Positions 1-23,676 of a stretch of DNA of 29,841 bases are shown in pieces; the first letter of the stretch is position 1, and each line of letters starts with the position of its first letter. The stretch comes from a virus (Duplodnaviria > Caudoviricetes). The DNA is taken from IMG/VR virus record IMGVR_UViG_3300038393_000414, positions 1 through 29,841 of that record; one strand, 5' to 3'. Under the pieces are notes generated by a model. The model did no database searches and was not told the DNA's origin. It was given only the letters and a program-made list of their open reading frames with translations. The position numbers and the translations under genes were made by a program.

Positions 1-422
1 GGGGTAGTTACAGGAACGAGTGCTGAAGTTCCGTCTGTGTACTGAAGAGAGCTTCCGTCAGTAATCCAAAGATACTGATCGGTAGCTGCCATGTCCGGCG
101 ATTCATCATCAGCTCCGTCAATCAGACCGGGGATTTGCGTAGAAGTAATCGTACGGTTCAGTTCCATGTGATGCTTCCAAAGCTGATTACCAGAAACGTG
201 GAACAGATCGTCGTTACTGAAACCCGGTTCGTGGTAAAGCCGACGTCCCGGACCAACACCTACTTCCAGCAGCTCAACAAGAGCAGGACGCTCAATCAGA
301 GCAACTTGGTTTTCTGTGTTAGTTGGATTAGCTTCAAAGAAACGGTTCTTAACGTAGACCGCGGGTTCATCAGCCCGATTGCGAATCCACTGACCTTTAC
401 CGAGAGGGACTTCTACTTCCAC
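1..422 (-). CDS. P22 gp10-like tail hub / packaged-DNA stabilization protein (5' part only; runs off the window)
   Basis: Not in the ORF track. Hand translation from GTG at 422 gives MEVEVPLGKGQWIRNRADEPAVYVKNRFFEANPTNTENQVALIERPAL..., open to the window edge. Overlaps the gp4-like stop and occupies the P22 gp10 syntenic position. Confidence 0.65.
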   Translation of the reverse strand, partial: MEVEVPLGKGQWIRNRADEPAVYVKNRFFEANPTNTENQVALIERPALVELLEVGVGPGRRLYHEPGFSNDDLFHVSGNQLWKHHMELNRTITSTQIPGLIDGADDESPDMAATDQYLWITDGSSLQYTDGTSALVPVTT

Positions 423-1156
423 GGTAGATACCTTCCAGTGTTAAAATCAATATCCGTGTAAGAGTTGTACCAAGAGCCTTTCGGGTCTGAAAGCCAACCA
501 AAGGTAGTAAGATCGCTAGGCATCAACGTTTTCTGCTCATAGCGAGAATGGAGTTGGCTCTTCATCCTACGCATGTAGGCAATCGTCTCAGGAGCAAGGC
601 TCTGCCCGTAACTCGGGTCTAACTGAGAAGCCAACATGATGGTGAAGTAGTCTTTGAACTCGTCAGGGAAGGGAAGGAAGTCATTGAGGTCAAGAGTGTT
701 AACTCTTAGCCAGTTGCTCTCGTTCGCCTGATAAATCCACTGACCAATGAAGTCAGCGGTATCAAGAACAAGAGGATCACTGTATTCAATGCTGCTGCCG
801 TTAGCATTCAGAATTACGTTGTACGTGTCGAAGTTACCGATAACGTCAACAACAGCAAAACGCTGACCGTCCTGCGGCATCGGGTCTAGATCAAAAGAAA
901 GCGCCTCAGAGGCGTTTACAACCAACCGAACGTTCCGAGGAACAAAAGGAGAACACAGAATTGACTGGTCGAAATCTCCACCGATACGAATGTCAGTTAG
1001 AGGATCGCCAGCCTCATTTCCAATAGTAGAAAATAGAATAGAGTTAAGAATGTCGAGGGCTTCGGTCTGCTGATCGCCAGTAGGGTCCACACCCAAGGGC
1101 ACGATATTGCTTATCCGATAAGCGCGCTTGATAATGTCAATAGCAATCAGTGCCAT
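413..1156 (-). CDS. Head-tail adaptor, P22 gp4-like
   Basis: N-terminus DIIKRAYRISNIV...EALDILNSIL resembles the P22 gp4 family; lies directly after the coat gene. Confidence 0.65.
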   Translation of the reverse strand: MALIAIDIIKRAYRISNIVPLGVDPTGDQQTEALDILNSILFSTIGNEAGDPLTDIRIGGDFDQSILCSPFVPRNVRLVVNASEALSFDLDPMPQDGQRFAVVDVIGNFDTYNVILNANGSSIEYSDPLVLDTADFIGQWIYQANESNWLRVNTLDLNDFLPFPDEFKDYFTIMLASQLDPSYGQSLAPETIAYMRRMKSQLHSRYEQKTLMPSDLTTFGWLSDPKGSWYNSYTDIDFNTGRYLPWK

Positions 1157-1171
1157 TTATTAACCTTACAG

Positions 1172-1207
1172 TAAAAGGGGAGGGAGCCCCGAAAGACCCC
1201 CTCCACC
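1172..1207 (-). terminator. Rho-independent terminator after the coat gene
   Basis: Minus strand reads GGAGGGGGTC-TTTCGG-GGCTCCCTCC followed by CCTTTT: GC stem with a UUCG loop. Confidence 0.75.
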
Positions 1208-1213
1208 AGTTAG

Positions 1214-2515
1214 TTACGCACCGTTAACGCGGACAATCCGACGACGATCACGGACGTTCGCAGTAGCAACGCAGTCAAAGCGAATGCTCTGGTCACCCGT
1301 GGCCCAGTCGGTGTGCTTCCACATACGAACACTCATCGGAACCTTCGTCAGCGACACGCGGTCGTTGGTGTCAGTGAACGAGGACGGAAGGTCCATCGTG
1401 CTGACCACAATCGCGGGCTTCTGAATCAGGAAGCGAGGAGTGTAAGCCGTACTAGCCGTACCGAAGAAAGTCACAACCGCATTATCCGCAGGCTTCACAT
1501 CAACCGTACGATGAGCCGAGTTCTGATCGGTATCGCCGATGATGATCGCCGGGAAGATACGCAGGGTAGCAGCGCCCGTACCGTCAGCAGTGACGTCACC
1601 AACGACGCGGAACTGCTGGGCGTGGGTCTGGACCTGCTGCTTGCGGTTGTCCCAAGCCTTGATGGTCGTGCCCGAGTTCGAGAGAGTGAAGATTTCACCA
1701 TCCTTAATCGTGGCATTCGCACCGAAGCCGTCGCAAATGAGCGTCTGCGTCAGGTAACGACCGTTAGCAGTCGTGGACTTGCAGACGTCGGCATAGTTGA
1801 CGTTCTGGTTCGCACCGTTCACCGCACCGTTGGTACGAGTACCCGGAGTGATGGACGAGAGCTGCTGAGTGAACATCGTCGGAAGACCGTCGATTTCACC
1901 AACGAAGCCCTTACGGAACGTCTGGGTGGAAAGGCTGTCAGTAGCCGTGTAGGCAACGACAGAGGTTGCAATCGCCTGACGGTCATCGTACGACAGCACG
2001 AGGCGAAGGTCGGAGTCATCAACACCTTCCTTCTTCAGGCGCGTATAGGCAGAGGCAACGTCTGCATAAGTTGCAACGTTGCTACCAGCCGTACCGACAG
2101 CGTTGTTGGCCGCGAGACCCGCAACACCCATGATGTAACTGTCAAGCTGTTCCGCGAGGTTGTTCGCAGCAGCCTTAATAGCCACACTCTCACGAGCGTC
2201 ACCGATGTTCTTAATGCGGTCGAACTCGGCCCAACCCATCGAAACGCCGAAGGAGTCGTTAACCGAGAACATCTCGGAGCCGAATGCAGTCGCCTGAACA
2301 CCGCCGGACAGGTCCTTAATACCGCCAGTCGTGTGCGTCACGACGTAACGGGGTTCGACCTGCTCGGAAACCATGAAACCATTACGAGCGTCATAAGAGC
2401 CGTCGTACTGCTTCCACGTCACGAGGTCAGCGGCGAGTAGGTTATTCTCAAACCTAGCCGCGAAGGCGTTGAGTACCAGCCTTGACTGGTCAACAGTATT
2501 AGTAGGTGCAGTCAT
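1214..2515 (-). CDS. Major capsid protein, P22 coat (gp5) family
   Basis: 433 aa downstream of the scaffold; TGTRTNGAVNGANQ, IKDGEIFT and QQFRVVGDVTAD...LRIFPAII motifs are typical of P22-like coats; RBS AGAAAGGT. Confidence 0.88.
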   Translation of the reverse strand: MTAPTNTVDQSRLVLNAFAARFENNLLAADLVTWKQYDGSYDARNGFMVSEQVEPRYVVTHTTGGIKDLSGGVQATAFGSEMFSVNDSFGVSMGWAEFDRIKNIGDARESVAIKAAANNLAEQLDSYIMGVAGLAANNAVGTAGSNVATYADVASAYTRLKKEGVDDSDLRLVLSYDDRQAIATSVVAYTATDSLSTQTFRKGFVGEIDGLPTMFTQQLSSITPGTRTNGAVNGANQNVNYADVCKSTTANGRYLTQTLICDGFGANATIKDGEIFTLSNSGTTIKAWDNRKQQVQTHAQQFRVVGDVTADGTGAATLRIFPAIIIGDTDQNSAHRTVDVKPADNAVVTFFGTASTAYTPRFLIQKPAIVVSTMDLPSSFTDTNDRVSLTKVPMSVRMWKHTDWATGDQSIRFDCVATANVRDRRRIVRVNGA

Positions 2516-2571
2516 TTGGGATTTTGTACCTTTCTAAGTTCCCAAAGCGCCTTCGCAGAGTAGTCTAGGAT

Positions 2572-3567
2572 TTAGTCCTTAAAGAACTCTCTTTTGAAGG
2601 CAGCCAGATCACGAGTATCTGGGCGTACGGAGAACCGTCCACCAGACCCGCGAGTCCGCACTTCAGGCGGGGGCGGAGTCTTTGATACTCTCTTGTTGCT
2701 CTCACGCTCCTCTTGCTTGGGCTTTGTAAGCTGTGCTTCTAGGCGACCAATTTCGAGGGTTGCAGCAGCAGGACCAGAGGCAACTATCTTCTGGGCCTCG
2801 CCGATATTTTGGCTGAGGTAATACATGATTTCAGGACCGTGATCGCACGACATAATAGTACCAGCAAGGTACTCGCCGTACGCAGGAGGAATATCCTTAA
2901 ATACTTCCACCATAGACGAGATTTTCTCACGAATGTCAGGCAGCTCTTCTTCAACGGCTTCTAGGTTTTCAACCCAGTGCTGTTGGATTAGTTGCTGTTG
3001 TTCCTGCATCTGGCGAGCCTGAGCCTGTTCCTGCCTCTTCTGCTCAGCGGCTTCCATCTCCTGCATAACCGTAAACCTCGTAAGGTTTGCAATATAATTA
3101 GGATCAATTTCACCGAGAGGATAGAGCGGTTCGCCCTTGTCATCTACGTCATCCGGAGTAGGAGCTTTTGGAGCTTCTGCCTTTACCGGAGCCTGTGGTT
3201 CTTGTTTTACTTCAGATCGAGACCTTGCTAGCTCAAGTTCACGCCGGAGAACTTCAACTTCACGTTCTGCCGCCTTCTTGTCTGCATAAATCTCGTTTAG
3301 ACGTTCCTGATAGGACTTACGGCGATTTTGCTTTGCACGAGGTTGATTATCCTCTTCCTCGTCTTCATCTTCTGATTCCTCTTCGGACTCATCAGAATCT
3401 TCGTCTTCACCTTCGTCTTCGTCAGTTGCGAGGTCGTCGTCCTCGGTAACCTCTTCCTGATCTTCTGCTTCCTGTTCTACAGTATCTTCACTGAAAAACT
3501 GGTTCTTAAAATCTTCGAGGTTGTTGTCAATATCGACAAGTTCGTTATTACTGTTGTCGTCAGTCAA
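2572..3567 (-). CDS. Scaffolding protein
   Basis: Acidic N-terminus, coiled coil, YYLSQN...EIGRLEAQL motif; lies between portal and coat; TTG start with AAAGGA RBS. Confidence 0.8.
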   Translation of the reverse strand: MTDDNSNNELVDIDNNLEDFKNQFFSEDTVEQEAEDQEEVTEDDDLATDEDEGEDEDSDESEEESEDEDEEEDNQPRAKQNRRKSYQERLNEIYADKKAAEREVEVLRRELELARSRSEVKQEPQAPVKAEAPKAPTPDDVDDKGEPLYPLGEIDPNYIANLTRFTVMQEMEAAEQKRQEQAQARQMQEQQQLIQQHWVENLEAVEEELPDIREKISSMVEVFKDIPPAYGEYLAGTIMSCDHGPEIMYYLSQNIGEAQKIVASGPAAATLEIGRLEAQLTKPKQEERESNKRVSKTPPPPEVRTRGSGGRFSVRPDTRDLAAFKREFFKD

Positions 3568-3615
3568 AATGGCATCCTTTATAAGATGATCCCTAGTTGC
3601 GGATTAGTTGATGAG

Positions 3616-5886
3616 TTAGGGTTGAGACTCACCGTCCGAGTTTAAACGTTTAGACAGAGCACGAATCTTGAGCTGCGTCAGAGTGTCTTGATTCTGCGCT
3701 CTCATCTTCGCGTCTTCTGCTTGATTATCTATTTGCTGTTGGCCCTGATCGTGGGACGTCAGTTGATCGTGTGCGTCCATCAACATCTGGCCTGTGTCAA
3801 CATTCTTCTGATGCTCTAGCTCTTCTTCAGCCATAGCCTGATCGGCTTCGTGCTCAAGTTGCCGGAGTTCAAATTCTTTATCCTTGGCAGCAAACTGAGC
3901 ATAGGCGGCAAGCCTGTCTGTCTCTGCCTTGAACTCTTCGATGGAAAGTCTACGCATCTCAATATCCTGCTTAGTCTTGAGCGCTGCGTTCTCCATCTCC
4001 ACCTTCTGAAGCTGTTGGCCCATCTGCTGCACGGCTTCTTGCAACTGAGCTTGCTGCTGCATCATTTGTTGGGCATTCGGACCTTGATCGCCAAGTTCAG
4101 CCTTTTCCTTGTCGGAGAGAAGCTGCGGTGGAATGGTCTTAACCAGACGTTCAGCGAGTTCCTCAGAACCCGGCCAATCCTGCGCCTTGACCACGAGGTC
4201 ACCAGCAATCTGCATAAGCTCCGGATAGACCTGAATAGCTTCCATCATAGCCTCGGCAGCTTCCACCCTACGAGTCGTGTAAGAAGCACCAGAGGTAGTG
4301 GTTACGTCATATTTACCCAGCGAAATGTCAGGACTGTTAGGATCGAGAGGATCGTTAATCTTAACTAACTTGGTCTTCTCGTCCTCTCCGATGATACGAA
4401 TTATACGAGTTCCGTCGTAGACCTGACCAATGAGCTGATTGATAACGTCACCGGCTTCCAAGATAGCAGCATTCCCATTGTCGTAGTAGGTAAGGGAAGC
4501 AATATCTCCTTCACGTTGCCGGGCCATAATAGCTCGCCCAGAGGTTTCATTGGACTTGATTCCAAGACTTGCATCATGAATCCCCGTAACATCTTTCATG
4601 TCCTGAGTGTTAAGCTGCGCCTCATTCAGCAAAGCCATCTGCATGGGAGGTGGATCAAGACGCTTAATGTTCTGGTCAATGATGGCTTCGTCGTTAACCA
4701 CCAGCAAAGGATCACGAGTAAGGTGAGCCTTGCGAATCTTGTCTTCCTTACCCTCAACGGCACTCTCAGTGGCAATCCACTGCGCCTTCGGGGCGTAGCC
4801 AAGCTGCTCAGCTGCAACCGAGCGCCAGAAGTTCTTAAGGCGAACAAGGTCCTTCATGAAGCGAACTAGGCCGTACCGATATCGACGGTCTCCCATAGTC
4901 ACTGTACGACCAGCCATGCGGATAATCGGAAGACGATTCATCTTCCATTCGTACGGACCTGCGAGAATTTTGAAACCTGTGACGAGGTGCATCTGAGCAT
5001 ACTTGCAAGGGGCAACACGCGTCTTTACCGGAGTACCAAACTTCTCCATTTCATCTGGTTCAACATTCTCATCGAAGGTTCGAATACTTCCGTCGTCGAA
5101 CATGACGAGCATTCGATCTCGTTCAATAATACGCCAGTGTTCGGTAACTCGAACAGTGTCAGAATCAATCCAGCCAGTGGCCGAAAGATTACGACGCTCC
5201 ACGTCACTCAAAGTAGAAGGATCGCTCTCAGGCCAACGACGATTAAATTCCTTCTGAGGAATAACGTCATCTACAAAACAGTGAGTCGCATCCCGCCCTG
5301 TAGGGTCAATTGACAGCCTATCCCAGACAACGGAAAGAACGTCGTCAATAGGCTCAATGGTGATATCTTGGTCAAAGACGTCTTCCGCAGCGTACTTAAC
5401 GCCGATACGAAAAGCTCCGTCCCCACACTGAATCATCGACTCAAACGCGCTGTCGTAAGTACGAGTAGCTCTGTTGTTTGTTTCGATTGACCGTATGAGA
5501 TCGGAGCGAATGTCGGCAACGTTTTTGTCGCCATTTTCCATCGGAAGAACTTTAATACCGTTTTTATTTTCTCGCCAGTCGCCGACTAGCTGGGCTGTAA
5601 ACTGGGGAATGGTATTAATTACAAGACACGGAAGTCCGGCACGTTGACGGAGAACTTGAGGGTCCCACTGTTCACCGGCTACAAACTTCTTGTCCTCAAG
5701 AGCTGCAATACGGTTGTCATCATCAAATTTCAAGTCAAGCTCATACGTCTCCCGCATATCCTGAAGATAGTCCTCAAGGGTATCGAAACCTTCGGGTACG
5801 TAGGAGGCTGCTGGCGTGTCGAAATCCTTCTCCGGAAGGATAAGTTTATCGACTTCGCCTGTAGAGTCTGATTTCTTTTTAGCCAT
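3616..5886 (-). CDS. Portal protein, P22-like
   Basis: 756 aa; EDKKFVAGEQW, PCLVIN, YGLVRFMKD, SNETSGRAIMARQREG motifs and a Gln-rich C-terminal barrel. Confidence 0.92.
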   Translation of the reverse strand: MAKKKSDSTGEVDKLILPEKDFDTPAASYVPEGFDTLEDYLQDMRETYELDLKFDDDNRIAALEDKKFVAGEQWDPQVLRQRAGLPCLVINTIPQFTAQLVGDWRENKNGIKVLPMENGDKNVADIRSDLIRSIETNNRATRTYDSAFESMIQCGDGAFRIGVKYAAEDVFDQDITIEPIDDVLSVVWDRLSIDPTGRDATHCFVDDVIPQKEFNRRWPESDPSTLSDVERRNLSATGWIDSDTVRVTEHWRIIERDRMLVMFDDGSIRTFDENVEPDEMEKFGTPVKTRVAPCKYAQMHLVTGFKILAGPYEWKMNRLPIIRMAGRTVTMGDRRYRYGLVRFMKDLVRLKNFWRSVAAEQLGYAPKAQWIATESAVEGKEDKIRKAHLTRDPLLVVNDEAIIDQNIKRLDPPPMQMALLNEAQLNTQDMKDVTGIHDASLGIKSNETSGRAIMARQREGDIASLTYYDNGNAAILEAGDVINQLIGQVYDGTRIIRIIGEDEKTKLVKINDPLDPNSPDISLGKYDVTTTSGASYTTRRVEAAEAMMEAIQVYPELMQIAGDLVVKAQDWPGSEELAERLVKTIPPQLLSDKEKAELGDQGPNAQQMMQQQAQLQEAVQQMGQQLQKVEMENAALKTKQDIEMRRLSIEEFKAETDRLAAYAQFAAKDKEFELRQLEHEADQAMAEEELEHQKNVDTGQMLMDAHDQLTSHDQGQQQIDNQAEDAKMRAQNQDTLTQLKIRALSKRLNSDGESQP

Positions 5887-6191
5887 TATCGCCTTGAAAG
5901 TAGGTGCATCAACAGACCACCAAGAAAGTCATTAGGATTCAAACCTGTTGAAGGAGGTGGTAAACGGGAAGGAGCCGGGCCTTGATCTGTAGGGTCGGTA
6001 GGAGTTCCGGGAGCCTGTGTCGTAGCTTGCTGGGCTTGACCAAACAAACCGCTCAAAAGGTCGTTGAACGGACCTTTACCCGTCATTATACCGTAGGCAG
6101 GACTTAGATACGGCAGAACCTTGCCAATACCTTCGCCCGTGATTGCTCCCGCTAAGGGGCTTATGAAACTAAGAGCTTTACCAATACCCAT
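5886..6191 (-). CDS. Hypothetical small protein, possibly virion- or membrane-associated
   Basis: 101 aa exactly fills the terL-portal gap; its stop overlaps the portal start. Confidence 0.7.
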   Translation of the reverse strand: MGIGKALSFISPLAGAITGEGIGKVLPYLSPAYGIMTGKGPFNDLLSGLFGQAQQATTQAPGTPTDPTDQGPAPSRLPPPSTGLNPNDFLGGLLMHLLSRR

Positions 6192-6193
6192 AT

Positions 6194-7603
6194 TTAAAGA
6201 GCCATCCAGCTAGTATCAGAGTGTCCTCTGTAGGGGTTGTAGTCTTCCATTCCGGGAATGTAGACAGGCTTGTTAGCTTCTTCTGTCTTAGCCCGGCGAC
6301 GACCTGTTACTTTGTCGAATATAAAAGTTAGACCCCAAACTAGGGCATCCATACGGTCAGGAGATTTGTTGTTTCCTCGGTCGTAGTCAGCCGAGAAAGA
6401 ACACATTTGATCTTCTAGTTCGTCGAATCGCCCGACGTGGTGAACTCGATTCTGTTCATAAAGTGCGGAGATAGGTTCAGCACGAACAAGCTTTCCCCGA
6501 GTCGCGTGTACCAAGGAGACAGGAACATTTCGATCAGCGGCTCGGATAACGGCTTCAACCATGTCGCCTCCTTGATTTTTCTCAGCAATGATTCGATCTG
6601 CATCAAATTCACGGTAGAGAGCGACAGCTGCTCTTGCCCATTCATCAGGAGACCCTCTAAGAGAGCGATCAGCGAGGACGTATCCTCGATTGTATCCGTC
6701 AGCATCTCGGGCAAGTCCCACACATACAATACCTGTTTCATCCGACCCCTCCTCCGATGAAATAGCTGGATCAACAGCCACTACGATACGCTGTAGTTCA
6801 TCCGGCGCTTCAGGGCGTCGGTTCAGGTCGATACTGCTGCGAGTCCACAGAGCACCGGGAATATCTTCAAGAAGCTCCCCTTCAAGCTCTTGACGACCCA
6901 GACGTGTTCCACCATATCGCTCTTCAATCTGCTTAAGGAAGGGTCCAGCAAGATTGCCGACGTTATCATAAGTCCGTCCACGGGTAACTACGGTATCAGG
7001 ATCGTTAATGAGCTTCTTGATTAGGTCCATCGGTCGCGGAGTCGTAGTGACAACCTGCTGGGGATGGGTTCCAAGACGGAGACCGAACTGCAACTGATCC
7101 CACGAATCTTGCATGTATTGCCACTTCGCCAGCTCGTCACACCAAGCAAAGTGATGCTGAGGTCCGCGAAGCTGATCTGGCTGCGTAGCGTTGTAAGTAA
7201 AAGCCATGCTACCATTAGGCCAAGTCAACTGTCTGTTGGCAGGAGAATATTCCGGCATGAAATCCGGAGAGGAAATGGTAAGGATGCCGCTGTCACCCTC
7301 TACCATAACCTTGCGGGCGTCAGCTGCCGTTTCCGCAACCAAAGCGATTCGGCATCCGGGATTCTGCTGGGCCTTCATACGGACCCATTCAGCTCCGCAG
7401 CGAGATTTACCGAAACCGCGTCCCGCAAGCAGGAGCCAAGTGGTCCAAACACCTTCGGGAGGGAGTTGATTAGGCCTAGCCCAAAATTCCCAGTTGTACT
7501 TCAAAGCAGCCAAGGCTTCAGGAGTCAAAGCCTTAAGAGCAGCTTCGCGCTCTTCTTCTGACAGGGATGCTAAGATTTCAGCGGGAGATTCTTGTCTAGC
7601 CAT
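6194..7603 (-). CDS. terL: Terminase large subunit
   Basis: Walker A AGRGFGKS, LRGPQHHFAWCDE Walker B, TTTP motif, nuclease VAVDP and SPDRMDA motifs. Confidence 0.95.
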   Translation of the reverse strand: MARQESPAEILASLSEEEREAALKALTPEALAALKYNWEFWARPNQLPPEGVWTTWLLLAGRGFGKSRCGAEWVRMKAQQNPGCRIALVAETAADARKVMVEGDSGILTISSPDFMPEYSPANRQLTWPNGSMAFTYNATQPDQLRGPQHHFAWCDELAKWQYMQDSWDQLQFGLRLGTHPQQVVTTTPRPMDLIKKLINDPDTVVTRGRTYDNVGNLAGPFLKQIEERYGGTRLGRQELEGELLEDIPGALWTRSSIDLNRRPEAPDELQRIVVAVDPAISSEEGSDETGIVCVGLARDADGYNRGYVLADRSLRGSPDEWARAAVALYREFDADRIIAEKNQGGDMVEAVIRAADRNVPVSLVHATRGKLVRAEPISALYEQNRVHHVGRFDELEDQMCSFSADYDRGNNKSPDRMDALVWGLTFIFDKVTGRRRAKTEEANKPVYIPGMEDYNPYRGHSDTSWMAL

Positions 7604-9259
7604 TTACGGGTTAGGATTCACCGGAATCGGAACTAGGTGATTCGGATTCACCTGACCATAGGAGGGCTGATAAGTACCGATTAGTTCTTTACCGTTGCCG
7701 AGAATACCTGAGTTACAGTTTAAATGCTTGTCCATGCAGTTGTCAGTCCACATCATCATCACAGTTGGGTCCCAAGCACCGAACCAGTCAGCGTGAAGCG
7801 TCGAGCCCGGCTTCTCAGTAGGAGCCATGACGTCAGAGGATAGTGACCAAGTACTTGTGGTGTCTCCTGCTTGGATTGAGTAGTAGATGTTCAAAGCGAA
7901 CTCAGGAATGATGTACGGATGAGTTGAAGGACAACCGGGGAAACCAAGATGGGTATCCTGCATGTAAGCGAGGTGAGACATATGGTTAGGAGAGTCGAGC
8001 TGAGTCCCATTCCAACACGTCGGAGCATCGAGGTTAGCAACTAGGTGATGCCCAACAGAGCAGACCGCAAGAGCGTCCCTCATGTTGTCAAAACTGCCTG
8101 TGTTGTTGTCACAATACCACTTGAAGTGGCTAGTAGCTGCCGTAGTAGTCGAAAGATGGTCTAGATCACGTCCGAAGATGTAACGAAGACCAAAGGGCAG
8201 GGCTAGACAGCCTTGAGTAATGCGTGTGTCGTTGCACTGTGTAGAGGATTTAGGATATCTCTTGTAGTATACAACATTCATATCCGGCTGAACAACGTGC
8301 CCGTTACCATCTAGAACCGCAGGAGCCCAGTAAGCAGAACGATTGGCAGCCGGTTTAGTAGGATCTCCGCAAGTTGTCTGACCGTGAGCACGAAGCGTCT
8401 CGTAGGTGGAGTTCGAGTTTGCGTCGAGATTGCCGTAGAACTGGTGCAGGTGGCTCTTTCCGGGCTGATTAAAGGCACGGAGAGGGTCGTCGTAACGAAG
8501 CTGACCCGCTCCACAGACAAATCGGAAAGCCGACAGAGTGTCGCCTACGTTCTCACCCGGAATTACGGAAGGTTCAATCGAGAGATTGTAGTCGAACTCA
8601 GAAGCAATAGGAGTAATACCCGTCAGTCCCGGAGATACAGTAGTAGTCTGAGTCCCCGTTGGTGTTGGATCGGTCCCAGTCGGGCAGTCAGCATCCGCAG
8701 GAACAACCGAACCATCGGGGCAAGTCTTCGTAGTTGGAGGAGTAACGGGGGTTGTACAATTATCAGTGATCGGAATTACAGACCCGTCAGGACAAACCTG
8801 AGTCGTTGGAGGCGGAGGATCAGTTGGGGTAGGTGTCGTAGGTTGAGGATCGTCCTCGATAATCGTAACGTTTACCGTGCAATTCGCACACGTAGCATTG
8901 TTTAGAGGTGTGAGTTGAACACTGAAAACTCGGTTGCCCACGTAAACGTCGTTGTTGATGATCGGAATAGAAATGGTGTTGGTAATACGACCAGAACCGA
9001 AAGTCATACTGCCAGACATGGCAACGTAGTCAGTTCCAGCCTTGGCCGTGCCGTCTACCGTCTTATAAGAATAGGCTGAAGGCTTTTTAAGACCTCCAAC
9101 CCGCTGGATTGCTATAGTAGCGTAGGGAATGGTTTCTGAAACAGAAGTATCTTGTCCCGAAATTGTGGGTGTAGTTTGTGCAGGACGGGGAGCCGCCCAA
9201 GCGCCACCAGAGATAAACAAACCAACAGCGGCAAAAGCCGTAAGAAGTTTCTTAATCAT
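7604..9259 (-). CDS. Secreted protein: signal peptide + Calx-beta domain + Pro/Thr linker + DUF1996 domain
   Basis: Signal MIKKLLTAF...AWA; Calx-beta YKTVDGTAKAGTDY...TFGSG...IPIINND; DUF1996 motifs DDP..SHLHQFYGN, NRSAYWAP, CWNG..LDSPNH.SH, CPSTHP, LHADWFGAWD. Confidence 0.85.
   Translation of the reverse strand: MIKKLLTAFAAVGLFISGGAWAAPRPAQTTPTISGQDTSVSETIPYATIAIQRVGGLKKPSAYSYKTVDGTAKAGTDYVAMSGSMTFGSGRITNTISIPIINNDVYVGNRVFSVQLTPLNNATCANCTVNVTIIEDDPQPTTPTPTDPPPPTTQVCPDGSVIPITDNCTTPVTPPTTKTCPDGSVVPADADCPTGTDPTPTGTQTTTVSPGLTGITPIASEFDYNLSIEPSVIPGENVGDTLSAFRFVCGAGQLRYDDPLRAFNQPGKSHLHQFYGNLDANSNSTYETLRAHGQTTCGDPTKPAANRSAYWAPAVLDGNGHVVQPDMNVVYYKRYPKSSTQCNDTRITQGCLALPFGLRYIFGRDLDHLSTTTAATSHFKWYCDNNTGSFDNMRDALAVCSVGHHLVANLDAPTCWNGTQLDSPNHMSHLAYMQDTHLGFPGCPSTHPYIIPEFALNIYYSIQAGDTTSTWSLSSDVMAPTEKPGSTLHADWFGAWDPTVMMMWTDNCMDKHLNCNSGILGNGKELIGTYQPSYGQVNPNHLVPIPVNPNP
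8681..8812 (-). repeat. Two PPTTxxCPDGSVxPxxxxC peptide repeats in the linker
   Basis: PPPTTQVCPDGSVIPITDNC and PPTTKTCPDGSVVPADADC in the translation. Confidence 0.8.
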
Positions 9260-9809
9260 TCACCGCTTTCTTTAGTTCCATTTTATCTGCCAGCCTACGA
9301 ATGCTGTTAGTAAATTCCTGTGCCTGTTCAGCAACCCGGCGCGTCTCCATTTCAATTGGGCCACCGTCACGACCGGAGATTTCCTGCCGTTCGATGAACA
9401 TTCCCATCGCGCGAGCCATAAGCTCACAAGCGCGTAGGACAGCCGTGTGATTTCCTTCTGCTTCAGCCCGCTCTAGCGTAGACTGAATCTTCTTCATGAC
9501 GTATTCGGGCTTGAGGGTTGTTTCCTTAGCGTTCTGAATCGTCAGTTCGTCCATCGCTGCCCGGATTCCAGGATGAGCCAGCATCTCGTGAGCCAGTCTC
9601 GCAGCGTGTTTAGTGTTGTAACCAGCGCGAAGCACCGCAGCGGCACCGTTAAAGTCCCTCAAATACTCTTCAACAAAGCGCCGCTGCCTAACGGTCAAGT
9701 TGTCGATCACCTCCTGAATGTTACCGGCATCCAACGCAGCTTGGACTTTGGGCTTAATTGAGTCCCTGATGCGCTTGGGGGAGTGGATGCGTGTTTTAAC
9801 TCTTTGCAT
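9252..9809 (-). CDS. terS: Terminase small subunit
   Basis: LTVRQRRFVEEYLRDFNGAAAVLRAGY HTH signature; C-terminal GMFIERQEISGRDGGPI. Confidence 0.9.
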   Translation of the reverse strand: MQRVKTRIHSPKRIRDSIKPKVQAALDAGNIQEVIDNLTVRQRRFVEEYLRDFNGAAAVLRAGYNTKHAARLAHEMLAHPGIRAAMDELTIQNAKETTLKPEYVMKKIQSTLERAEAEGNHTAVLRACELMARAMGMFIERQEISGRDGGPIEMETRRVAEQAQEFTNSIRRLADKMELKKAVND

Positions 9810-9810
9810 T

Positions 9811-10116
9811 TTACTTCCTGTAGATTGGAATTTCAGGGTCAGGTCTGTAACCCGGAGCCTTTAGCGAGCGTAGAAGGTAAATATCTCCTAGAGTAAGATT
9901 GTTGTTGTGCATCATTTGGATTTCGGAAGGAGTAAGACTGTTCAGAGAGTCGTGAAGCCACTTACCGTATCCACCAACAGCCCGTATGTCGTCCATCTGG
10001 TTGTTGATGTAGTTTTCTTGCTGGGCTTGACTCTTGTAGAATAGCTTAGTTAGAAGTGAAAGGCCCGTGTCATCCCTAAAGTTCTTGCTTTCGGGGTCGT
10101 TCCGTAGGGCAACCAT
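9811..10116 (-). CDS. Hypothetical protein
   Basis: 101 aa, tightly abutting both neighbours. Confidence 0.65.
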   Translation of the reverse strand: MVALRNDPESKNFRDDTGLSLLTKLFYKSQAQQENYINNQMDDIRAVGGYGKWLHDSLNSLTPSEIQMMHNNNLTLGDIYLLRSLKAPGYRPDPEIPIYRK

Positions 10117-10397
10117 TAGAGCTTCTTAGGGGCTTTGGTCTTCTTTGACCTACGATTGTAGTGACGATTGACTGATTCACTCAGAACACGGAGATTTGAG
10201 TCACCATTCCCAGCACCTGTACCGGAGATGTGGTCTACGTCTTTCCCGTCACCCTTGTGAACCCGGCCTTCACGCATAAGCTTGCGCCGAGCAGCGTTAC
10301 GCTCTGCCCGGTTCTTCTTTTGCTGGGGTTTGGCATTGTACTTCTTCTGAGCAGCTTGCCGTCCCGGAGTGTTAGGTAGTGTGGTCTTCCCCTTCAT
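10116..10397 (-). CDS. HNH endonuclease-like basic protein
   Basis: KDVDH...NGDSNLRVLSESVNR HNH motif. Start moved to ATG 10397 because the longer ORF's 5' end is the promoter itself. Confidence 0.75.
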   Translation of the reverse strand: MKGKTTLPNTPGRQAAQKKYNAKPQQKKNRAERNAARRKLMREGRVHKGDGKDVDHISGTGAGNGDSNLRVLSESVNRHYNRRSKKTKAPKKL

Positions 10398-10404
10398 ACT
10401 ACAT

Positions 10405-10433
10405 ATTATACACTTTTTTAGATCAAAAGTCAA
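10405..10433 (-). promoter_or_regulatory. Sigma70-type promoter of the packaging/structural arm
   Basis: TTGACT-N17-TATAAT, 7 nt upstream of the HNH ATG. Confidence 0.8.
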
Positions 10434-10481
10434 GTAAAATCGTACAAAGGAGGTAATTTTTCTACATTTTTTATTTTTTAC

Positions 10482-10510
10482 TTGACAAACTGACCAAAAT
10501 ATAGTATAAT
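10482..10510 (+). promoter_or_regulatory. Consensus sigma70 promoter
   Basis: TTGACA-N17-TATAAT followed by the palindrome ACTTATATAAGT. Confidence 0.85.
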
Positions 10511-10594
10511 ACTTATATAAGTCAGCGAGGGTAAAGGATCACATACTCCCCGGTTCCCGCCCTAAAAAATTCTATATTCGTAGAGAAGCTCTTG

Positions 10595-10623
10595 ATGGTG
10601 TGCCGATTCGGTGTTACTGTCAA
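10595..10623 (-). promoter_or_regulatory. Possible second leftward sigma70 promoter
   Basis: Minus strand TTGACA-N17-CACCAT. Confidence 0.45.
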
Positions 10624-10777
10624 GGGCTTTTTGTATATTCTCGATATGACTTTTCTAATTTTTTATCTAGTATGAAAGGCTGCCTTTTTGACCGATACAG
10701 GCCATTTGATTTCACCCGTCCCCCCCGACCCCGGCACCCTCTTGTGATGATACAACGTCACAGGGCGGCGCTCCTCT

Positions 10778-10854
10778 TGAGAATGAGAAGCAAGAGCAAC
10801 ACACTGATAAAGCTTCGCTCTCGCATTAAGCTATTGATAATGCTTCTCATTAAC
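10778..10854. promoter_or_regulatory. Fur-box-like sites (one strong, two degenerate)
   Basis: GATAATGCTTCTCATTAAC at 10836-10854 matches the classical Fur box at 15/19; weaker 7-1-7 sites at 10778 and 10805. Confidence 0.5.
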
Positions 10855-10894
10855 CACATGTACGCGGGAGATGGAGAACACACGCGCGTAGGGA

Positions 10895-11078
10895 GAACAA
10901 ATAGGGAACAGTGCATGAACGAAGCGCAAACAAACAGGACAATTCGAGAACACTTCGAGAACGTCACTCAACTCATCGCTCAAAACACTCGGCTCACCGC
11001 ACTACAAATGTAGCACCACCGTGAACAAACGAGCAACACTACAAATGTAGAGCGAACAAACGCGAACAAACCGTGAAA
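10895..11078 (+). promoter_or_regulatory. Cluster of alphaproteobacterial LexA (SOS) boxes, GAAC-N7-GAAC
   Basis: Perfect copies at 10895-10909, 10906-10920 and 10948-10962; one-mismatch copies at 10917, 10937, 11023 and 11064. Confidence 0.65.
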
Positions 11079-11093
11079 GCGCTACAAATGTAG
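11002..11093. repeat. Three identical inverted-repeat motifs CTACAAATGTAG (TACA-N2-TGTA, BlaI/MecI/CopY-type core)
   Basis: Exact copies at 11002-11013, 11039-11050 and 11082-11093. Confidence 0.85.
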
Positions 11094-11121
11094 TCAGCTA
11101 AGCCACTGAAAACAAAGACAT

Positions 11122-11150
11122 TTGACTTTCAATCCGCCATGTGGTCTAAG
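11122..11150 (+). promoter_or_regulatory. Putative early promoter
   Basis: TTGACT-N17-TCTAAG with an A-rich upstream element, ahead of the first early ORF. Confidence 0.45.
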
Positions 11151-11262
11151 GGACGGGTTCCGAGACGCAACGGCGTCTTTGAGGCGCGGCCTACGGGTCG
11201 TTCGGAACGCTCACAATGCGGTAGCGCTCTTTGAGCGCGGCCCATAGCCGAAAGGCAACGTA

Positions 11263-11496
11263 ATGACTAGGCATCAACGCCGCAAGCTTGCGCGGAAGCG
11301 TAAGGATGCAAAGGCTGATATCCTCAATCGCCGTGCGCTGCACGTGCTACAGCAGGAGAAAGCCAAGCTAAACCTTTCGCGTCCCAAGCCAAGGGAGCGC
11401 ACTAAGGCGGGATTGGTTAGCTCGATTTATTCGGGCGCACCTAATCCGCTTGGATACACGCGGCCCTTGACATGGAGCAAGGGAGCGGCTAAGTAA
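11263..11496 (+). CDS. Small basic early protein
   Basis: 77 aa Arg/Lys-rich; GAAAGG RBS. Confidence 0.65.
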   Translation: MTRHQRRKLARKRKDAKADILNRRALHVLQQEKAKLNLSRPKPRERTKAGLVSSIYSGAPNPLGYTRPLTWSKGAAK

Positions 11497-11935
11497 CCCT
11501 AGACGTGCTAGAGCGCTGTAACGGTGCGCCGCGAAACGCTCTAGCCGTTTGGCCCACGATACGGGCAAAGGTAGGTCGCAAAGCCAGCCACGGGCGGTTA
11601 ATCCCCGCTACGGAAAGCAACGTGCCCTGATAGCAAAGGGAACGACACGTTGGATAGCACGACACTTCACGCGAGTAAGTGCCTACGTAATTCGCGGAGC
11701 GACTTTCGAGCCGTTCCTAACGTGGTAGGTTGCTGAAAGGATATAACCGTGGACACGCATCCCTTCGGGCGGATGCTGTAAGCTAGCCGTATCGCTCGCG
11801 GGCCTACTGCGCCCGATAACGTAAGAGCCAACGCACTAAAAGCGCAAAGTCTTACGGATATGTTAACCTAAAAGCACACGAGCAAAGCCACAGAATTGTG
11901 GTAAGGTGTTACGCACTTACCCTATTCGTAAAGTG
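11497..11935 (+). ncRNA. Candidate structured non-coding RNA
   Basis: No plausible ORF; a run of stems including GCTAGAGCG/CGCTCTAGC, CAACGTG/CACGTTG, GCATCC-cTTCGg-GGATGC and CGTAAGA/TCTTACG. Confidence 0.45.
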
Positions 11936-11940
11936 GCGCA

Positions 11941-12012
11941 CTTAATTGTGTAGGGCGGTGTTAGCGCATCTCTCCCCAAACCCCCACGTTAGCACCGTCC
12001 TACCCAGTTAAG
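11941..12012 (+). other. Long RNA hairpin, putative RNase III site
   Basis: 25 of 26 positions paired (G-U included), C-rich loop. Confidence 0.6.
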
Positions 12013-12030
12013 CGCAAGGGAGACAGCGCA

Positions 12031-12285
12031 ATGAAACCACCTCGTGCATATGAACAAGCCCAAAAGTTGCGGGCACAGTTGGGAACGGTTGACGTTGCAA
12101 TTCAGCGTCGTCAAGTGTTCCCTCTCATGGCCGATGAACACGGCTCATCCATCGGCGCTCAGATTGACGCGCTCTTGTGTGACGTTGCGGCGGAACACGA
12201 AGGCGTAGTCAAGAGCGTCACTCTCAACTTGTTCGACGACCAACTAGACGCGGTGTCGGACTACTATCAAGGACCACACGAATGA
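12031..12285 (+). CDS. Hypothetical early protein
   Basis: 84 aa; AAGGGAG RBS. Confidence 0.7.
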   Translation: MKPPRAYEQAQKLRAQLGTVDVAIQRRQVFPLMADEHGSSIGAQIDALLCDVAAEHEGVVKSVTLNLFDDQLDAVSDYYQGPHE

Positions 12286-12440
12286 ACACACTTACCCTAC
12301 GCCACCGCTACGCCGTGTTCTGCTACTACGGCGAAGTGAAGGAACGTGTCGGCACGATACTCGCGAACAACGCGAGCCACGCTAACACGAAAGCTCAACA
12401 GCTTTTCAATCGGCACTGTTGGGCTGAACGCATCGAGTAG
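12282..12440 (+). CDS. Hypothetical early protein (52 aa)
   Basis: ATGA overlap with the upstream stop; AAGGA RBS; MNTLTLRHRYAVFCYYGEVKERVGTI... Confidence 0.65.
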   Translation: MNTLTLRHRYAVFCYYGEVKERVGTILANNASHANTKAQQLFNRHCWAERIE

Positions 12441-12519
12441 CACGGTTGCTCTAGGCACACGCGTAAGCGGTTAGCAGTCTGCTAGCGACGGGGCTGCGTG
12501 TGTGTCTTAACCAGCTGTG
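12441..12519 (+). other. Long RNA hairpin, putative RNase III site
   Basis: CACGGTTG/CAGCTGTG base stem plus a 13-bp AGGCACACGCGTA/TGCGTGTGTGTCT stem. Confidence 0.55.
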
Positions 12520-12585
12520 GGACACACGCAACAATCCCGTTGCGTGCTCTACCTAACTGGAAGCCAACGCAAAGGAGAAAAAGCA

Positions 12586-13323
12586 ATGGCACGTAAGAAG
12601 TATGTTGGTGACGCGGCTATCGGTCGTGCAATCAAGTCGCTTGGCGGTGTGCTCAACAACGTCAACGAACGGGTGCAGGACATTGCTGTGTCCATCATCG
12701 AACACGCGGCTGGTCCGGGCAACGGCGACATGAGCCGTGCTCTCGACCTGTGCAAGACGGTCGCTCGTTACAAGACGCTCAACGTCGCCTATCTGGTGGG
12801 CTTCTTCGCCTACTACGGCAACGCGAACGTCAACCTGCGGGCGAACGACGGTGCCGGCAAGGTGTCCCTCATTTCGAAGGACAGCAAGCGGTATCGCGGC
12901 TTCGACCCCGCTGGCGCGGCGCATAACAACTGGAACGAGGCGTTCGACGACAAGGGCAATCGTGCCAAGTGGTACGCTGGTCCTGAACCGGCTGAGTTCC
13001 AGCCCATGACAATCGGCGACCTTGCGGCTCGTATGCAGGGGTTCGTGAAGAACACGAACAAGCTGATTTCGCCGGAGAACACGAAGGAAGTGAAGGGCAA
13101 GAACGTTCCTGTCTTCTCGCTTTCCGAAGGCGACCGGCAGCAGGTCGAACACGCTCTCGCTTTCATCGACCGCATCGCCAACACGCTGGCGCGGCACGAG
13201 GAAGTCGAGCAGGCGGCGAAGAAGTTTGCCGAAGCGCAGGAAGCGCTTGAGCAGGACAACGACGTCGTCGAAGCTATCGAGAGCGTCGTGGTCGAGGGTG
13301 CCCGCAAGGCAGCCAACGGCTAA
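12586..13323 (+). CDS. Phage early protein of unknown function (245 aa)
   Basis: AAAGGAG RBS before MARKKYVG; GC-rich, host-like codon usage. Confidence 0.85.
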   Translation: MARKKYVGDAAIGRAIKSLGGVLNNVNERVQDIAVSIIEHAAGPGNGDMSRALDLCKTVARYKTLNVAYLVGFFAYYGNANVNLRANDGAGKVSLISKDSKRYRGFDPAGAAHNNWNEAFDDKGNRAKWYAGPEPAEFQPMTIGDLAARMQGFVKNTNKLISPENTKEVKGKNVPVFSLSEGDRQQVEHALAFIDRIANTLARHEEVEQAAKKFAEAQEALEQDNDVVEAIESVVVEGARKAANG

Positions 13324-22908: not shown

Positions 22909-23676
22909 ATGGCGATTAAGGTTTACCCGTACAAAGCAGGTAGCCGGGGTGCTAAGGCTTTGGCCGAGGCGCTGGGAGCGCGTGTCCTGAAACGTCAGGG
23001 CAGCAAGTACCGCTACCGTGAAGGTGATTTGATTATCAACTGGGGGGCTTCTGACTGTCCCTTCAATTTTGCCAACACTCATCGCCGAACGGCTAATTCA
23101 CCTGAAACGATTGAGCCCGCCAGCAACAAGCTGACGTGTTTCAAGATGATGCAAGAAGCTGGTGTTAGTATCCCTCGGTTCTGGACAGACAAGAACGACA
23201 TTCCGGACGATACGTTCCCCATCATGTGCCGTACGAAGCTTCAGGCTCACAGTGGTGAAGGGATTGTCGTGGCAGAGCGTCGTGACCAGCTGGTGGTAGC
23301 CCCTCTGTACACCCAGTACATCAAGAAGAAGCACGAGTACCGTATTCACGCGTTGAGGATGCCGGGCAAGGGAACATCTATCATCGTTGCCCAGCGTAAA
23401 GCTAAGAAGAACGACAGAGACGATGCTAACTTCATGGTACGTAATCTCGACAACGGTTTTGTGTACGTTCTCGACGATGATCCTCCTGAGTGTGTTCGTA
23501 ACGAGGCTGTTAAGGCTTTGGAGTCCACGGAGCTAGCTTTTGGTGCGGTGGACGTCATCTACAACGAGCATCAGAACAAGGCGTACGTGCTGGAAATCAA
23601 CACGGCACCCGGTCTTGAGCAACGTACTGCTGAGGCTTACGCCAAGGTCTTTCAAAAGATTTTGCTTGACAACTAG
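22909..23676 (+). CDS. ATP-grasp peptide/amide ligase
   Basis: IINWG, NKL, HSGEGIV, YTQYI..KHEYRIH, FGAVD and VLEINTAPG. Confidence 0.92.
   Translation: MAIKVYPYKAGSRGAKALAEALGARVLKRQGSKYRYREGDLIINWGASDCPFNFANTHRRTANSPETIEPASNKLTCFKMMQEAGVSIPRFWTDKNDIPDDTFPIMCRTKLQAHSGEGIVVAERRDQLVVAPLYTQYIKKKHEYRIHALRMPGKGTSIIVAQRKAKKNDRDDANFMVRNLDNGFVYVLDDDPPECVRNEAVKALESTELAFGAVDVIYNEHQNKAYVLEINTAPGLEQRTAEAYAKVFQKILLDN

What the first reader, a model, noticed from the sequence alone, without database searches (positions are those of the whole stretch)
10778..11111. Composite array of host-regulator operator-like sites near the presumed genome end (candidate operator-decoy system)
Seen: a ~340 bp non-coding block containing Fur-like boxes, then at least seven GAAC-N7-GAAC-type sites interleaved downstream with three identical CTACAAATGTAG motifs, ending in an IHF-like site (TAAGCCACTGAAA, 11099-11111). 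Known: these match the consensus sites of Fur, alphaproteobacterial LexA, BlaI/MecI/CopY repressors and IHF. No repressor or integrase gene is in the window, and none of the sites overlaps a recognisable core promoter. Inference: the DNA itself may be the effector. It could be a multi-regulator sponge that derepresses host SOS, iron and envelope regulons as genomes replicate, a landing pad that coats and protects or ratchets the first-injected end, or a sensor that ties early transcription to host state.
Basis: partly seen in the sequence, partly recalled or inferred. Interest (0 to 1): 0.88.

Follow-up and report, generated by a model that had tools for sequence, protein, structure and literature searches.

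The report
Borrowed-repressor cap on phage genome end
A 350-base gene-free stretch at the likely first-injected end of a soil phage's DNA is tiled with matches to docking sites for several unrelated proteins of its likely bacterial host, and related phages of other hosts carry different, host-matched sites there, so these viruses likely coat their leading end with borrowed host proteins, a protection that would work before any viral protein is made.

Summary
The array is real and larger than reported. With matrices from alphaproteobacterial host promoters, the block holds the window's two best Fur boxes, its best LexA box and three BlaI-type operators; 0 of 2000 shuffles match any class. It starts at a C-run; depth rises 1.5-2.3-fold there in two of eight runs, marking a likely terminal repeat. 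Among 36 non-redundant relatives, 19 have Fur boxes (all within 161 bp of the C-run), 13 LexA, 11 sigma54; the other non-coding stretch has 2, 2, 0. BlaI sites occur in only 2. Cultured LUZ24/Zobellviridae phages carry different, host-matched sites at their left ends (tf gamma-LexA x3, VpV262 sigma54 x6; recalled patterns). Five (near-)complete relatives encode no integrase, Fur, LexA or Cro-like gene. Fixed position with interchangeable factors favours a protein coat on the leading end (0.45) over promoter control (0.25), packaging aid (0.15) or a sponge (0.12). Binding is untested. This scan noted similar arrays before on other phage DNA (T5 injection-stop type).

The parts
10405..10433 (-). 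sigma70-type promoter for the leftward packaging/structural operon (HNH-like, terS, terL, portal)
   Evidence: 11 of 12 consensus matches; a like promoter was the anchor in all 39 loci used
10482..10510 (+). perfect sigma70-type promoter pointing at the terminus; the same element recurs at 23665, 25808 and 29424
10585..10634 (+). long G-U-rich hairpin plus T run; likely terminator of a ~115-nt RNA that would stop about 85 bp before the C-run
   Evidence: fold z = -2.6; a related hairpin is seen in L012, L013, L016, L017, L089
10715..10739 (.). C-rich run, likely at or near the left genome end / start of the direct terminal repeat
   Evidence: present in 38 of 39 loci; ICBM1, ICBM2, LUZ24, tf, RIO-1 and Phriendly terminal repeats begin at or up to ~20 bp before a C-run; depth step in runs X2 and X11
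10744..10761 (.). Zur-like palindrome, weak in this strain (9.1 bits); stronger at this position in L012, L013, L044, L089, L183
   Evidence: matrix from only 5 of 13 host cobW/zigA upstream regions; not enriched over the control stretch (6 vs 5 of 36)
10776..10794 (.). Fur box 1 (alphaproteobacterial type), 14.6 bits
   Evidence: agrees with Caulobacter Fur sites in PMC2724300 Table 3
10803..10827 (.). Fur box 2, degenerate here (5.2 bits), 11.6-11.9 bits in L009
10827..10839 (-). exact IHF consensus match (recalled pattern), overlapping Fur box 3
   Evidence: same place in 4 close relatives
10833..10851 (.). Fur box 3, best in the window (20.2 bits)
10861..10890 (.). element X (TACGCG ... 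CGCGCG, with alternating purine-pyrimidine tracts); kept in relatives in both orientations, not a host motif; binder unknown, possibly a phage signal near the right edge of the repeat
   Evidence: 2 matches vs 13 for the reversed control in 151 host genomes
10893..10963 (+). two chains of GAAC half-sites at 11-bp spacing (10893-10932, 10935-10963): alpha-type LexA operators; the first has the three-to-four-unit form seen upstream of host lexA genes
   Evidence: (29 of 30 host lexA upstreams)
10972..11000 (+). element Y: two 8-bp repeats 21 bp apart, shared with host promoters of SIMPL, creD, ntrY and amidohydrolase genes; regulator unnamed (likely an envelope-stress response regulator)
   Evidence: 7 phage loci, both orientations; 38 matches in 31 of 151 host genomes vs 3 for the control; neighbours named
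11002..11093 (.). three BlaI/MecI-family operators (11002-11013, 11039-11050, 11082-11093) interleaved with weaker LexA-type repeats (11021-11038, 11052-11078)
   Evidence: 31 of 32 host blaI-family upstreams; identical 12-mer upstream of host gene L351
11122..11152 (+). candidate first early promoter (weak; placed by eye from alignment with relatives, not shown active)
   Evidence: not called by the scan
11263..11496 (+). first early gene, basic 77-aa protein of no known family, kept in close relatives

Best explanation
The block is a tiled set of matches to host operators (Fur x3, IHF, LexA, BlaI-family x3, one unnamed host motif, perhaps Zur) at the likely left end of a likely lytic LUZ24/Zobellviridae-type podophage of a likely alphaproteobacterial host, and it likely works as a gene-free landing pad that coats the first-injected DNA with borrowed host proteins. 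Shown: the motifs, their match to operators in host genomes, their confinement to the first ~450 bp after the C-run, their order (Fur first, LexA later) and their exchange for other host-matched sites in relatives. Inferred: that this end enters first; that these proteins, DNA-bound in an unstressed cell, occupy the sites within seconds; and that the dense coat would slow end-loading nucleases (AddAB/RecBCD) and hold the end in the cytoplasm until RNA polymerase engages the first early promoter and phage proteins take over. On this reading the identity of the proteins matters little and occupancy is what is selected. The host is likely of the order that holds the Kordiimonadaceae genome G001 (Sphingomonadales in GTDB, recalled).
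For: (1) Operators match host-derived ones: BlaI core upstream of 31 of 32 host genes, exact form 26 times vs 0 in 91 kb of flanks; LexA form upstream of 29 of 30 host lexA genes; Fur matrix; element Y in host promoters. (2) Position: 38 anchored loci give Fur 48 hits in 15.9 kb of cassette vs 2 in 16.1 kb of neighbouring non-coding DNA and 7 in 271 kb elsewhere; LexA 18/3/9. In 36 non-redundant loci, Fur 19 vs 2, LexA 13 vs 2, sigma54 11 vs 0; all 44 Fur hits lie 12-161 bp from the C-run. In five whole relatives (248 kb) 10 of 14 Fur hits and 3 of 3 strict sigma54 hits lie in the 2.25 kb of cassettes. (3) End: depth 158|235|354|208|152 in X2 and 97|161|92 in X11; cultured relatives start at a C-run; tf DNA stays attached to heads by its left end (PMC3517423). 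(4) Interchangeable, host-matched factors: tf 3 gamma-LexA boxes (expected 0.09), VpV262 6 sigma54 sites (expected 0.04) and 3-4 FadR-like, LUZ24 and K4 one SOS box each, RIO-1 a MetJ pair, ICBM1, ICBM2 and GP100 a Zur box; alpha-type Fur/LexA/BlaI matrices find nothing in those 9 left ends, and gamma-LexA is in 0 of 36 cassettes of this clade. (5) Sigma54 sites and element Y occur in both orientations, and no site overlaps a called promoter. (6) About 305 of 352 bases are covered by motifs as I delimited them. (7) The need is stated in print: a leading end meets RecBCD before any phage protein exists (10.1101/866236 section 4.1.3).
Against: No binding, terminus mapping or phenotype is shown. 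Only 2 of 8 runs gave a readable depth step, from contigs, so the repeat's edges are uncertain (about 10715-10760 to 10850 or beyond); X4 shows no doubling. Injection polarity is not established even for tf. RecBCD is known to evict single bound proteins (recalled), so shielding needs density or is only a delay. Several relatives show few or no recognised sites (L027, L038, L121, L123, L134, L135 have none above threshold), and RHph_I3_11 showed none, Phriendly little. In five whole relatives only 1 of 13 LexA hits and 0 of 5 BlaI hits lie in the cassette. Identity inside motifs (0.62) is only modestly above spacers (0.50) among four close relatives. Some relatives (L033, L098, L113; by eye also L112, L114) have a forward sigma54 site, mostly with IHF sites and repeated enhancer-like boxes, the layout of a working promoter. 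Patterns for cultured phages were recalled and chosen after looking (12 patterns x 10 phages).
Confidence: 0.45

Rival explanations
1. The sites are cis-acting control elements of the first early promoter: upstream activators, counter-silencers against H-NS-like proteins, or sensors that tune entry into lysis to iron, zinc, DNA-damage and envelope state, with IHF bending the DNA.
For: The array lies directly upstream of the first early gene. Caulobacter Fur activates from upstream sites at sdh and nuo (PMC2724300). CtrA sites in terminal repeats of alphaproteobacterial phages regulate phage genes (PMC9437464). Some relatives have a complete forward sigma54 promoter layout. The order of sites is kept among close relatives.
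Against: No site overlaps a called promoter; Fur boxes are 270-350 bp upstream. Sigma54 sites and element Y often point the other way, and VpV262 has six sigma54 sites in two orientations. The factor set has no common physiology across relatives.
Confidence: 0.25
2. Host proteins bound here act late, on concatemers: as a roadblock or bend that helps duplicate the terminal repeat or positions terminase, as IHF does at lambda cos (recalled); part of the block could be bound by phage proteins.
For: Fur boxes fall within a terminal-repeat-sized distance of the C-run (12-161 bp). A conserved promoter-terminator unit points at the end. Element X is phage-specific. An unrelated phage contig (L008) has five BlaI-type sites beside a small ORF that reads like a terminase small subunit by eye (no Pfam match).
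Against: LexA, BlaI and most sigma54 sites lie beyond the likely repeat; in VpV262, RIO-1 and LUZ24 the sites lie outside the annotated repeat. Motifs change among phages whose terminase small subunits are 60-70% identical, and they match host operators.
Confidence: 0.15
3. The block is a DNA sponge: as the genome replicates, it titrates Fur, LexA, BlaI-family and other repressors and derepresses host iron, SOS and envelope genes to the phage's benefit.
For: Multiple high-scoring sites per factor; multicopy Fur boxes are known to titrate Fur (recalled); no cognate regulator gene in five near-complete relatives.
Against: Titration does not need a terminal position, yet sites avoid the neighbouring non-coding stretch. 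No NrdR-type box, the most useful target, was found in 38 cassettes. Sigma54, IHF, MetJ and FadR sites make little sense as a set. Titration may still occur as a side effect.
Confidence: 0.12
4. The motifs are chance look-alikes in an A/C-rich repetitive end region.
For: The region has a strong A skew and GAAC/AAAC repeats can arise by slippage; the Zur call is not above control.
Against: 0 of 2000 dinucleotide shuffles reach the Fur, LexA or BlaI counts; cross-phage enrichment and the switch of box type with host group.
Confidence: 0.03

Closest known systems
Phage T5 injection stop signal (Repeat Region 3 of the left terminal repeat)
   Same: Non-coding, cis-acting block tied to DNA entry, dense in repeats; Davison (bioRxiv 10.1101/866236; abstract, passages and section 4.1.3 read) proposes that host DnaA binding halts injection. 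My scan of NC_005859 9140-10260 finds a gamma SOS box, a DnaA box and Fur boxes there.
   Different: T5's block is about 9.3 kb inside the genome and marks a pause before A1/A2-dependent second-step transfer; here the block is at the likely very end, was not scanned for DnaA boxes, and its factors change between relatives. The paper does not mention LexA or Fur.
CtrA-site clusters in terminal repeats of alphaproteobacterial phages (lytic deferment; Mascolo et al. 2022, PMC9437464)
   Same: Host regulator sites concentrated at the ends of non-temperate alphaproteobacterial phages (passages and section 21 read).
   Different: One regulator, promoter-associated, shown to control transcription; here four to six unrelated factors, none overlapping a called promoter; a CtrA pattern was seen in 1 of 38 cassettes.
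Bacillus phage phi29 Spo0A boxes and Spo0J sites; LexA-controlled switches of temperate phages
   Same: A phage carries sites for host regulators without encoding them (as summarised in PMC9437464).
   Different: Those sites repress named promoters or drive spore entrapment or prophage induction; this clade has no integrase or Cro/CI-type gene in five near-complete relatives.
End-protecting proteins of T4, Mu and P22; IHF at lambda cos
   Same: Would serve the same purpose (guarding or shaping a free DNA end); the first three are named in 10.1101/866236 section 4.1.3, lambda is recalled.
   Different: Those use a phage-made protein delivered with the DNA, or one host factor at packaging; here the proposed cap is encoded only as DNA sites and built from several host repressors.

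Membership tests
alphaproteobacterial Fur box | 19-bp 9-1-9 palindrome found upstream of host iron genes | tested here: met
   De novo matrix from 30 feoA upstreams; window sites rank 1 and 2; agrees with PMC2724300 Table 3; box 2 weak in this strain
alphaproteobacterial Fur box | iron-dependent binding by Fur | not testable with these tools
   needs gel shift or ChIP
alphaproteobacterial LexA operator | GAAC repeats at 11-bp spacing as upstream of host lexA | tested here: met
   29 of 30 host lexA upstreams; best window site in the block; 6 sites of 8 bits or more vs 0.33 in shuffles
alphaproteobacterial LexA operator | overlaps a promoter that it represses | tested here: not met
   no promoter called in the block; nearest candidate starts 44 bp after the last repeat
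BlaI/MecI/CopY operator | TACAnnTGTA core upstream of host BlaI-family genes | tested here: met
   31 of 32 and 13 of 25 host upstreams; identical 12-mer at L351
BlaI/MecI/CopY operator | flanking bases of the main host subfamily | tested here: inconclusive
   16-bp matrix scores only 8.3 and 5.9; flanks resemble minority operators such as L190, L338, L351
   not within one mismatch; exact match at 10827-10839 instead
Zur box | palindrome as upstream of host zinc-starvation genes | tested here: inconclusive
   9.1 bits, rank 5 in window; 6 vs 5 of 36 against control; matrix from 5 sites only
ChvI site (for element Y) | GCC repeats 11 bp apart or the MEME motif of PMC9731502 | tested here: not met
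   compared by eye with passages; element Y does not fit
direct terminal repeat of LUZ24/Zobellviridae type | short repeat starting at a C-run, with about doubled read depth | tested here: inconclusive
   C-run present; depth 1.5-2.3-fold in X2 and 1.7-fold in X11; six other runs uninformative or flat; contigs only
T5 injection stop signal | internal position kilobases from the end, followed by second-step transfer | tested here: not met
   block starts at the likely terminus; T5 iss is annotated at 9140-10149
T5 injection stop signal | A1/A2 genes and an ordered DnaA-box series | not tested
   no A1/A2 family appeared among 34 ORFs scanned, but no directed search was made
temperate-phage host-repressor switch | integrase or phage repressor gene | tested here: not met
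   0 of 5 relatives for PF00589 and 0 of 5 for PF01381, four of each at least 90% complete; the window itself is 62% complete
LUZ24-like / Zobellviridae-type podophage | amidoligase-GATase-ATP-grasp cluster, T7-type primase and polymerase, divergent early and packaging arms around the ends | tested here: met
   no cultured relative above 60% protein identity, so family rank is not assigned

The most novel reading that the evidence does not exclude
Podophages of the LUZ24/Zobellviridae group solve the leading-end problem with a gene-free cap: an evolvable strip of operators for whichever tight-binding proteins their host offers (Fur, LexA, BlaI, sigma54, IHF, MetJ, FadR, Zur), which self-assembles a protective coat on injection. 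The strip would also be a readable signature of the host lineage.
Probability: 0.3. Interest if true: 0.9.

Novelty: new variant of a known kind. Interest (0 to 1): 0.74.

Why it matters
How a lytic phage without a terminal protein keeps its first-entering DNA end intact before it can make any protein is an open question stated in print (10.1101/866236). A cap made of borrowed host repressors would be a new, protein-free answer, and it can be tested now in cultured phages (tf in Pseudomonas putida has three LexA-type boxes at its mapped left end). It would also give a comparative handle on the unexplained T5 injection-stop repeats. Whatever the function, the box types track the host group, which offers a way to predict hosts of uncultured phages and to find unnamed host regulons (element Y).

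Tried and rejected
DNA search of the block against cultured phages: no match. Scan of viral contigs for paired CTACAAATGTAG: 7 loci, none of this clade; 5 looked like coding or simple repeats, L003 and L008 like operator arrays. hemP upstreams were useless for a Fur matrix (9 loci, mostly inside operons). TerS search in bacterial genomes gave 2 distant hits and no host; the DUF1996 protein gave no host signal. Rfam: nothing above threshold in 10400-12600. Atlas search of the first early protein: best score 0.78, no lead. Element X is not a host motif; element Y is not ChvI-like and was only weakly above control in a second host family (10 vs 2 matches in 101 genomes); no creBC genes were identified near the one creD locus examined. 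Contig ends of relatives near the C-run (+81 to +158 in L089, L016, L035) are suggestive but scattered and were not counted as evidence. The X3/X4/X5 allele of Fur box 2 scores lower (3.5 bits), not higher, than the window's, which corrects an early note of mine. KOPS or Chi readings of the C-run were considered from recall and dropped because the window does not fit. No structure or complex prediction was run; no protein partner was in question.

Full report
Setting. The window is a 62%-complete virus record. Left of 10433, genes on the minus strand encode an HNH-like protein, terminase subunits, portal, scaffold and capsid; right of 11263, genes on the plus strand include small early ORFs, a gamma-glutamyl cyclotransferase / amidotransferase / amidoligase / ATP-grasp cluster, a primase-helicase and a family A polymerase. 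This is the layout of LUZ24-like and Zobellviridae podophages, with the ends lying between the two arms. No cultured phage exceeds 60% protein identity and the block has no DNA match among them. Runs that hold it are soil and rhizosphere metagenomes (12 of 17 rows hold half the words or more).

Observation. The motifs are at the stated places. To avoid judging by remembered consensus, I took operators from host genomes. A Kordiimonadaceae genome served as centre for sampling its order (Sphingomonadales in GTDB, recalled). Upstream of the BlaI-family genes examined (the 30 best matches plus two more), 31 of 32 have TACAnnTGTA within one mismatch, the exact form 26 times against 0 in 91 kb of flanks; 29 of 30 lexA genes have GAAC repeats at 11 bp, usually three in a row. 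In a second host family 13 of 25 BlaI genes have the core, one with the phage's exact 12-mer. De novo search of 30 feoA upstream regions gave aTTGAgAATcATTcTCAAt, in line with Caulobacter Fur sites (PMC2724300, passages and Table 3). With these matrices the block holds the two best Fur sites and the best LexA site of the window; 0 of 2000 dinucleotide shuffles reach the Fur (2), LexA (6) or BlaI (3) counts. Corrections: only three LexA pairs are exact, Fur box 2 is weak in this strain, the BlaI flanks fit a minority host subfamily, and the IHF match is at 10827-10839, not 11099-11111. The BlaI and LexA matrices were built from regex-selected host sites, so their cores are partly circular; the independent evidence is the enrichment upstream of the host genes.

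Relatives. A TerS alignment fetched 80 viral and 80 metagenome loci, and the first early protein 10 more. Sixteen loci with TerS identity of 37% or less lacked the layout. I kept 34 closer loci with enough upstream DNA (duplicates and short ones dropped), 4 and the window; 38 of these 39 could be anchored on a C-run about 290-570 bp (once 1000) after the late promoter. In the 450 bp after it, Fur gives 48 hits in 15.9 kb, against 2 in the 16.1 kb of non-coding DNA before it and 7 in 271 kb elsewhere; LexA 18, 3, 9; BlaI 7, 0, 3. After clustering to 36 loci: Fur 19 vs 2, LexA 13 vs 2, sigma54 11 vs 0, IHF 11 vs 3, BlaI 2 vs 0, Zur 6 vs 5. All 44 Fur hits lie 12-161 bp from the C-run; LexA hits spread to 373. 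These loci are related, so the counts are not independent events. Six loci show no site above threshold, though several carry other repeated motifs. In five whole relatives 10 of 14 Fur hits and all 3 strict sigma54 hits are in the cassette, but only 1 of 13 LexA and 0 of 5 BlaI hits. Sets of five relatives gave no integrase, Fur, LexA-binding or HTH_3 domain, so the binders are likely host proteins.

New elements. Element Y (10972-11000) recurs in 7 phage loci in both orientations. Its pattern has 38 matches in 31 of 151 host genomes of the sampled order against 3 for the reversed control, mostly just upstream of SIMPL, creD, amidohydrolase, ntrY and DUF885 genes. It does not fit published ChvI motifs (PMC9731502 and bioRxiv 2021.04.17.440287, passages). 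It points to a host in or near that order. Element X (10861-10890) is kept among phages but not in hosts. A Zur-like palindrome follows the C-run but is weak here.

The end. Terminal repeats of ICBM1, ICBM2, LUZ24, tf, RIO-1 and Phriendly begin at or just before a C-run (tf ends mapped in PMC3517423, passages), and L182, L183 and L185 share ICBM1's bases before the run. Contig depth in run X2 is 158 up to 10774, 235 and 354 over 10745-10835, 208 to 11292, then 152; in X11 it is 97, 161 over 10689-10849, then 92. Six other runs did not resolve this. The likely reading is a terminal repeat from about 10715-10760 that covers the Fur boxes, with the LexA and BlaI sites on the left end only.

Generality. 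In the first 600 bases of ten cultured relatives I looked for twelve recalled host patterns. tf has three gamma-type LexA boxes, two inside its repeat (0 of 300 resamplings); VpV262 has six sigma54 sites in both orientations and three to four FadR-like boxes (0 of 300 each); LUZ24 and K4 have one SOS box; RIO-1 a MetJ pair; ICBM1, ICBM2 and GP100 a Zur box; Phriendly little; RHph_I3_11 nothing. The patterns were chosen after looking, so single hits are weak. The LexA box type follows the host group: gamma-type in Pseudomonas phages, alpha-type here, with no cross-hits in the cassettes.

Mechanism. Three features need explaining: fixed position at one end, dense tiling, and free exchange of unrelated factors and orientations. 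A sponge does not need the position; promoter control does not fit reversed and stacked sites that miss the promoter, though some relatives do look like working sigma54 promoters; a phage-protein signal would not track host operators. A landing pad fits all three. The leading end is the one part of the genome exposed before any phage protein exists (10.1101/866236, section 4.1.3), and repressors that are DNA-bound in unstressed cells could coat it at once. I put this at 0.45; whether the coat mainly delays AddAB/RecBCD or mainly anchors the end cannot be told from sequence. Every step after the sequence match is inferred.

Known systems. The closest are T5's injection-stop region, where my scan finds SOS, DnaA and Fur boxes (lead from earlier notes of this scan), and CtrA clusters in phage terminal repeats (PMC9437464, passages and section 21). 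The block works like these in recruiting host proteins to phage non-coding DNA but fails membership on position and on promoter overlap. Literature searches for operator arrays or decoys at phage ends returned 0 papers or nothing relevant among those listed (25 of 64; 20 of 68, tf paper aside; some searches gave the papers above). The tf paper has no mention of LexA or SOS. The library lacks most subscription papers; I did not see the original descriptions of VpV262, RIO-1, LUZ24 or the cobaviruses, nor any supplements, and these could mention the repeats.

Verdict. A real, conserved, host-matched multi-operator strip at the likely left end of a large uncultured phage clade, with counterparts in cultured phages. 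New variant of a known kind; interest 0.74, because it makes the leading-end question testable in available phage-host pairs.

Noticed in passing
window 11497-12030: A ~530-bp stretch without a credible gene after the first early ORF is conserved in blocks in L178, L179 and L181; 17 of 70 predicted pairs show a two-sided change (four sequences only). No Rfam match. Candidate structured RNA or processing-site array.
   Followed up: partly
window 10482-10634: A perfect sigma70-type promoter and a conserved hairpin-T-run would give a ~115-nt RNA ending about 85 bp before the C-run; it may prime or signal terminal-repeat duplication.
   Followed up: partly
window 10715-10739: The minus strand has four G-tracts (possible G-quadruplex); four C3 tracts occur near the anchor in 29 of 38 loci, with no chance control run.
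   Followed up: partly
L393:173-490 (Vibrio phage VpV262): Six sigma54-type sites in both orientations followed by three to four FadR-like boxes just after the terminal repeat.
   Followed up: partly
L400:96-275 (Pseudomonas phage tf); L392:144-300 (RIO-1): tf has three gamma-type LexA boxes at its left end; RIO-1 has a run of 8-bp-periodic MetJ-like boxes.
   Followed up: partly
L170:4520-4890 (Roseobacter phage CRP-6): About nine copies of a 16-bp motif and five of a second 15-bp motif in the non-coding end of the record; binders unidentified.
   Followed up: no
L008:1956-2112: An unrelated GC-rich phage contig carries five BlaI-type operators upstream of a small ORF that looks like a terminase small subunit by eye (no Pfam match). 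L003 has a four-copy array of the same core.
   Followed up: partly
cassettes of L023, L026, L033, L034, L044, L094 and of L033, L038, L039, L098, L112-L114: Two further repeated motifs in relatives (an ACGCAACAAT-type array; a TGTCGG...TTACA box ahead of sigma54 and IHF sites) have no assigned regulator.
   Followed up: no
host loci L364-L386: Element Y defines an apparently unnamed host regulon (SIMPL, creD, amidohydrolase, ntrY, DUF885); in G187 and G180 the creD site lies about 5 kb from the blaI-family gene.
   Followed up: partly
window 7604-9259: A Calx-beta plus DUF1996 protein sits between terS and terL; relatives have other large inserts at this spot.
   Followed up: no
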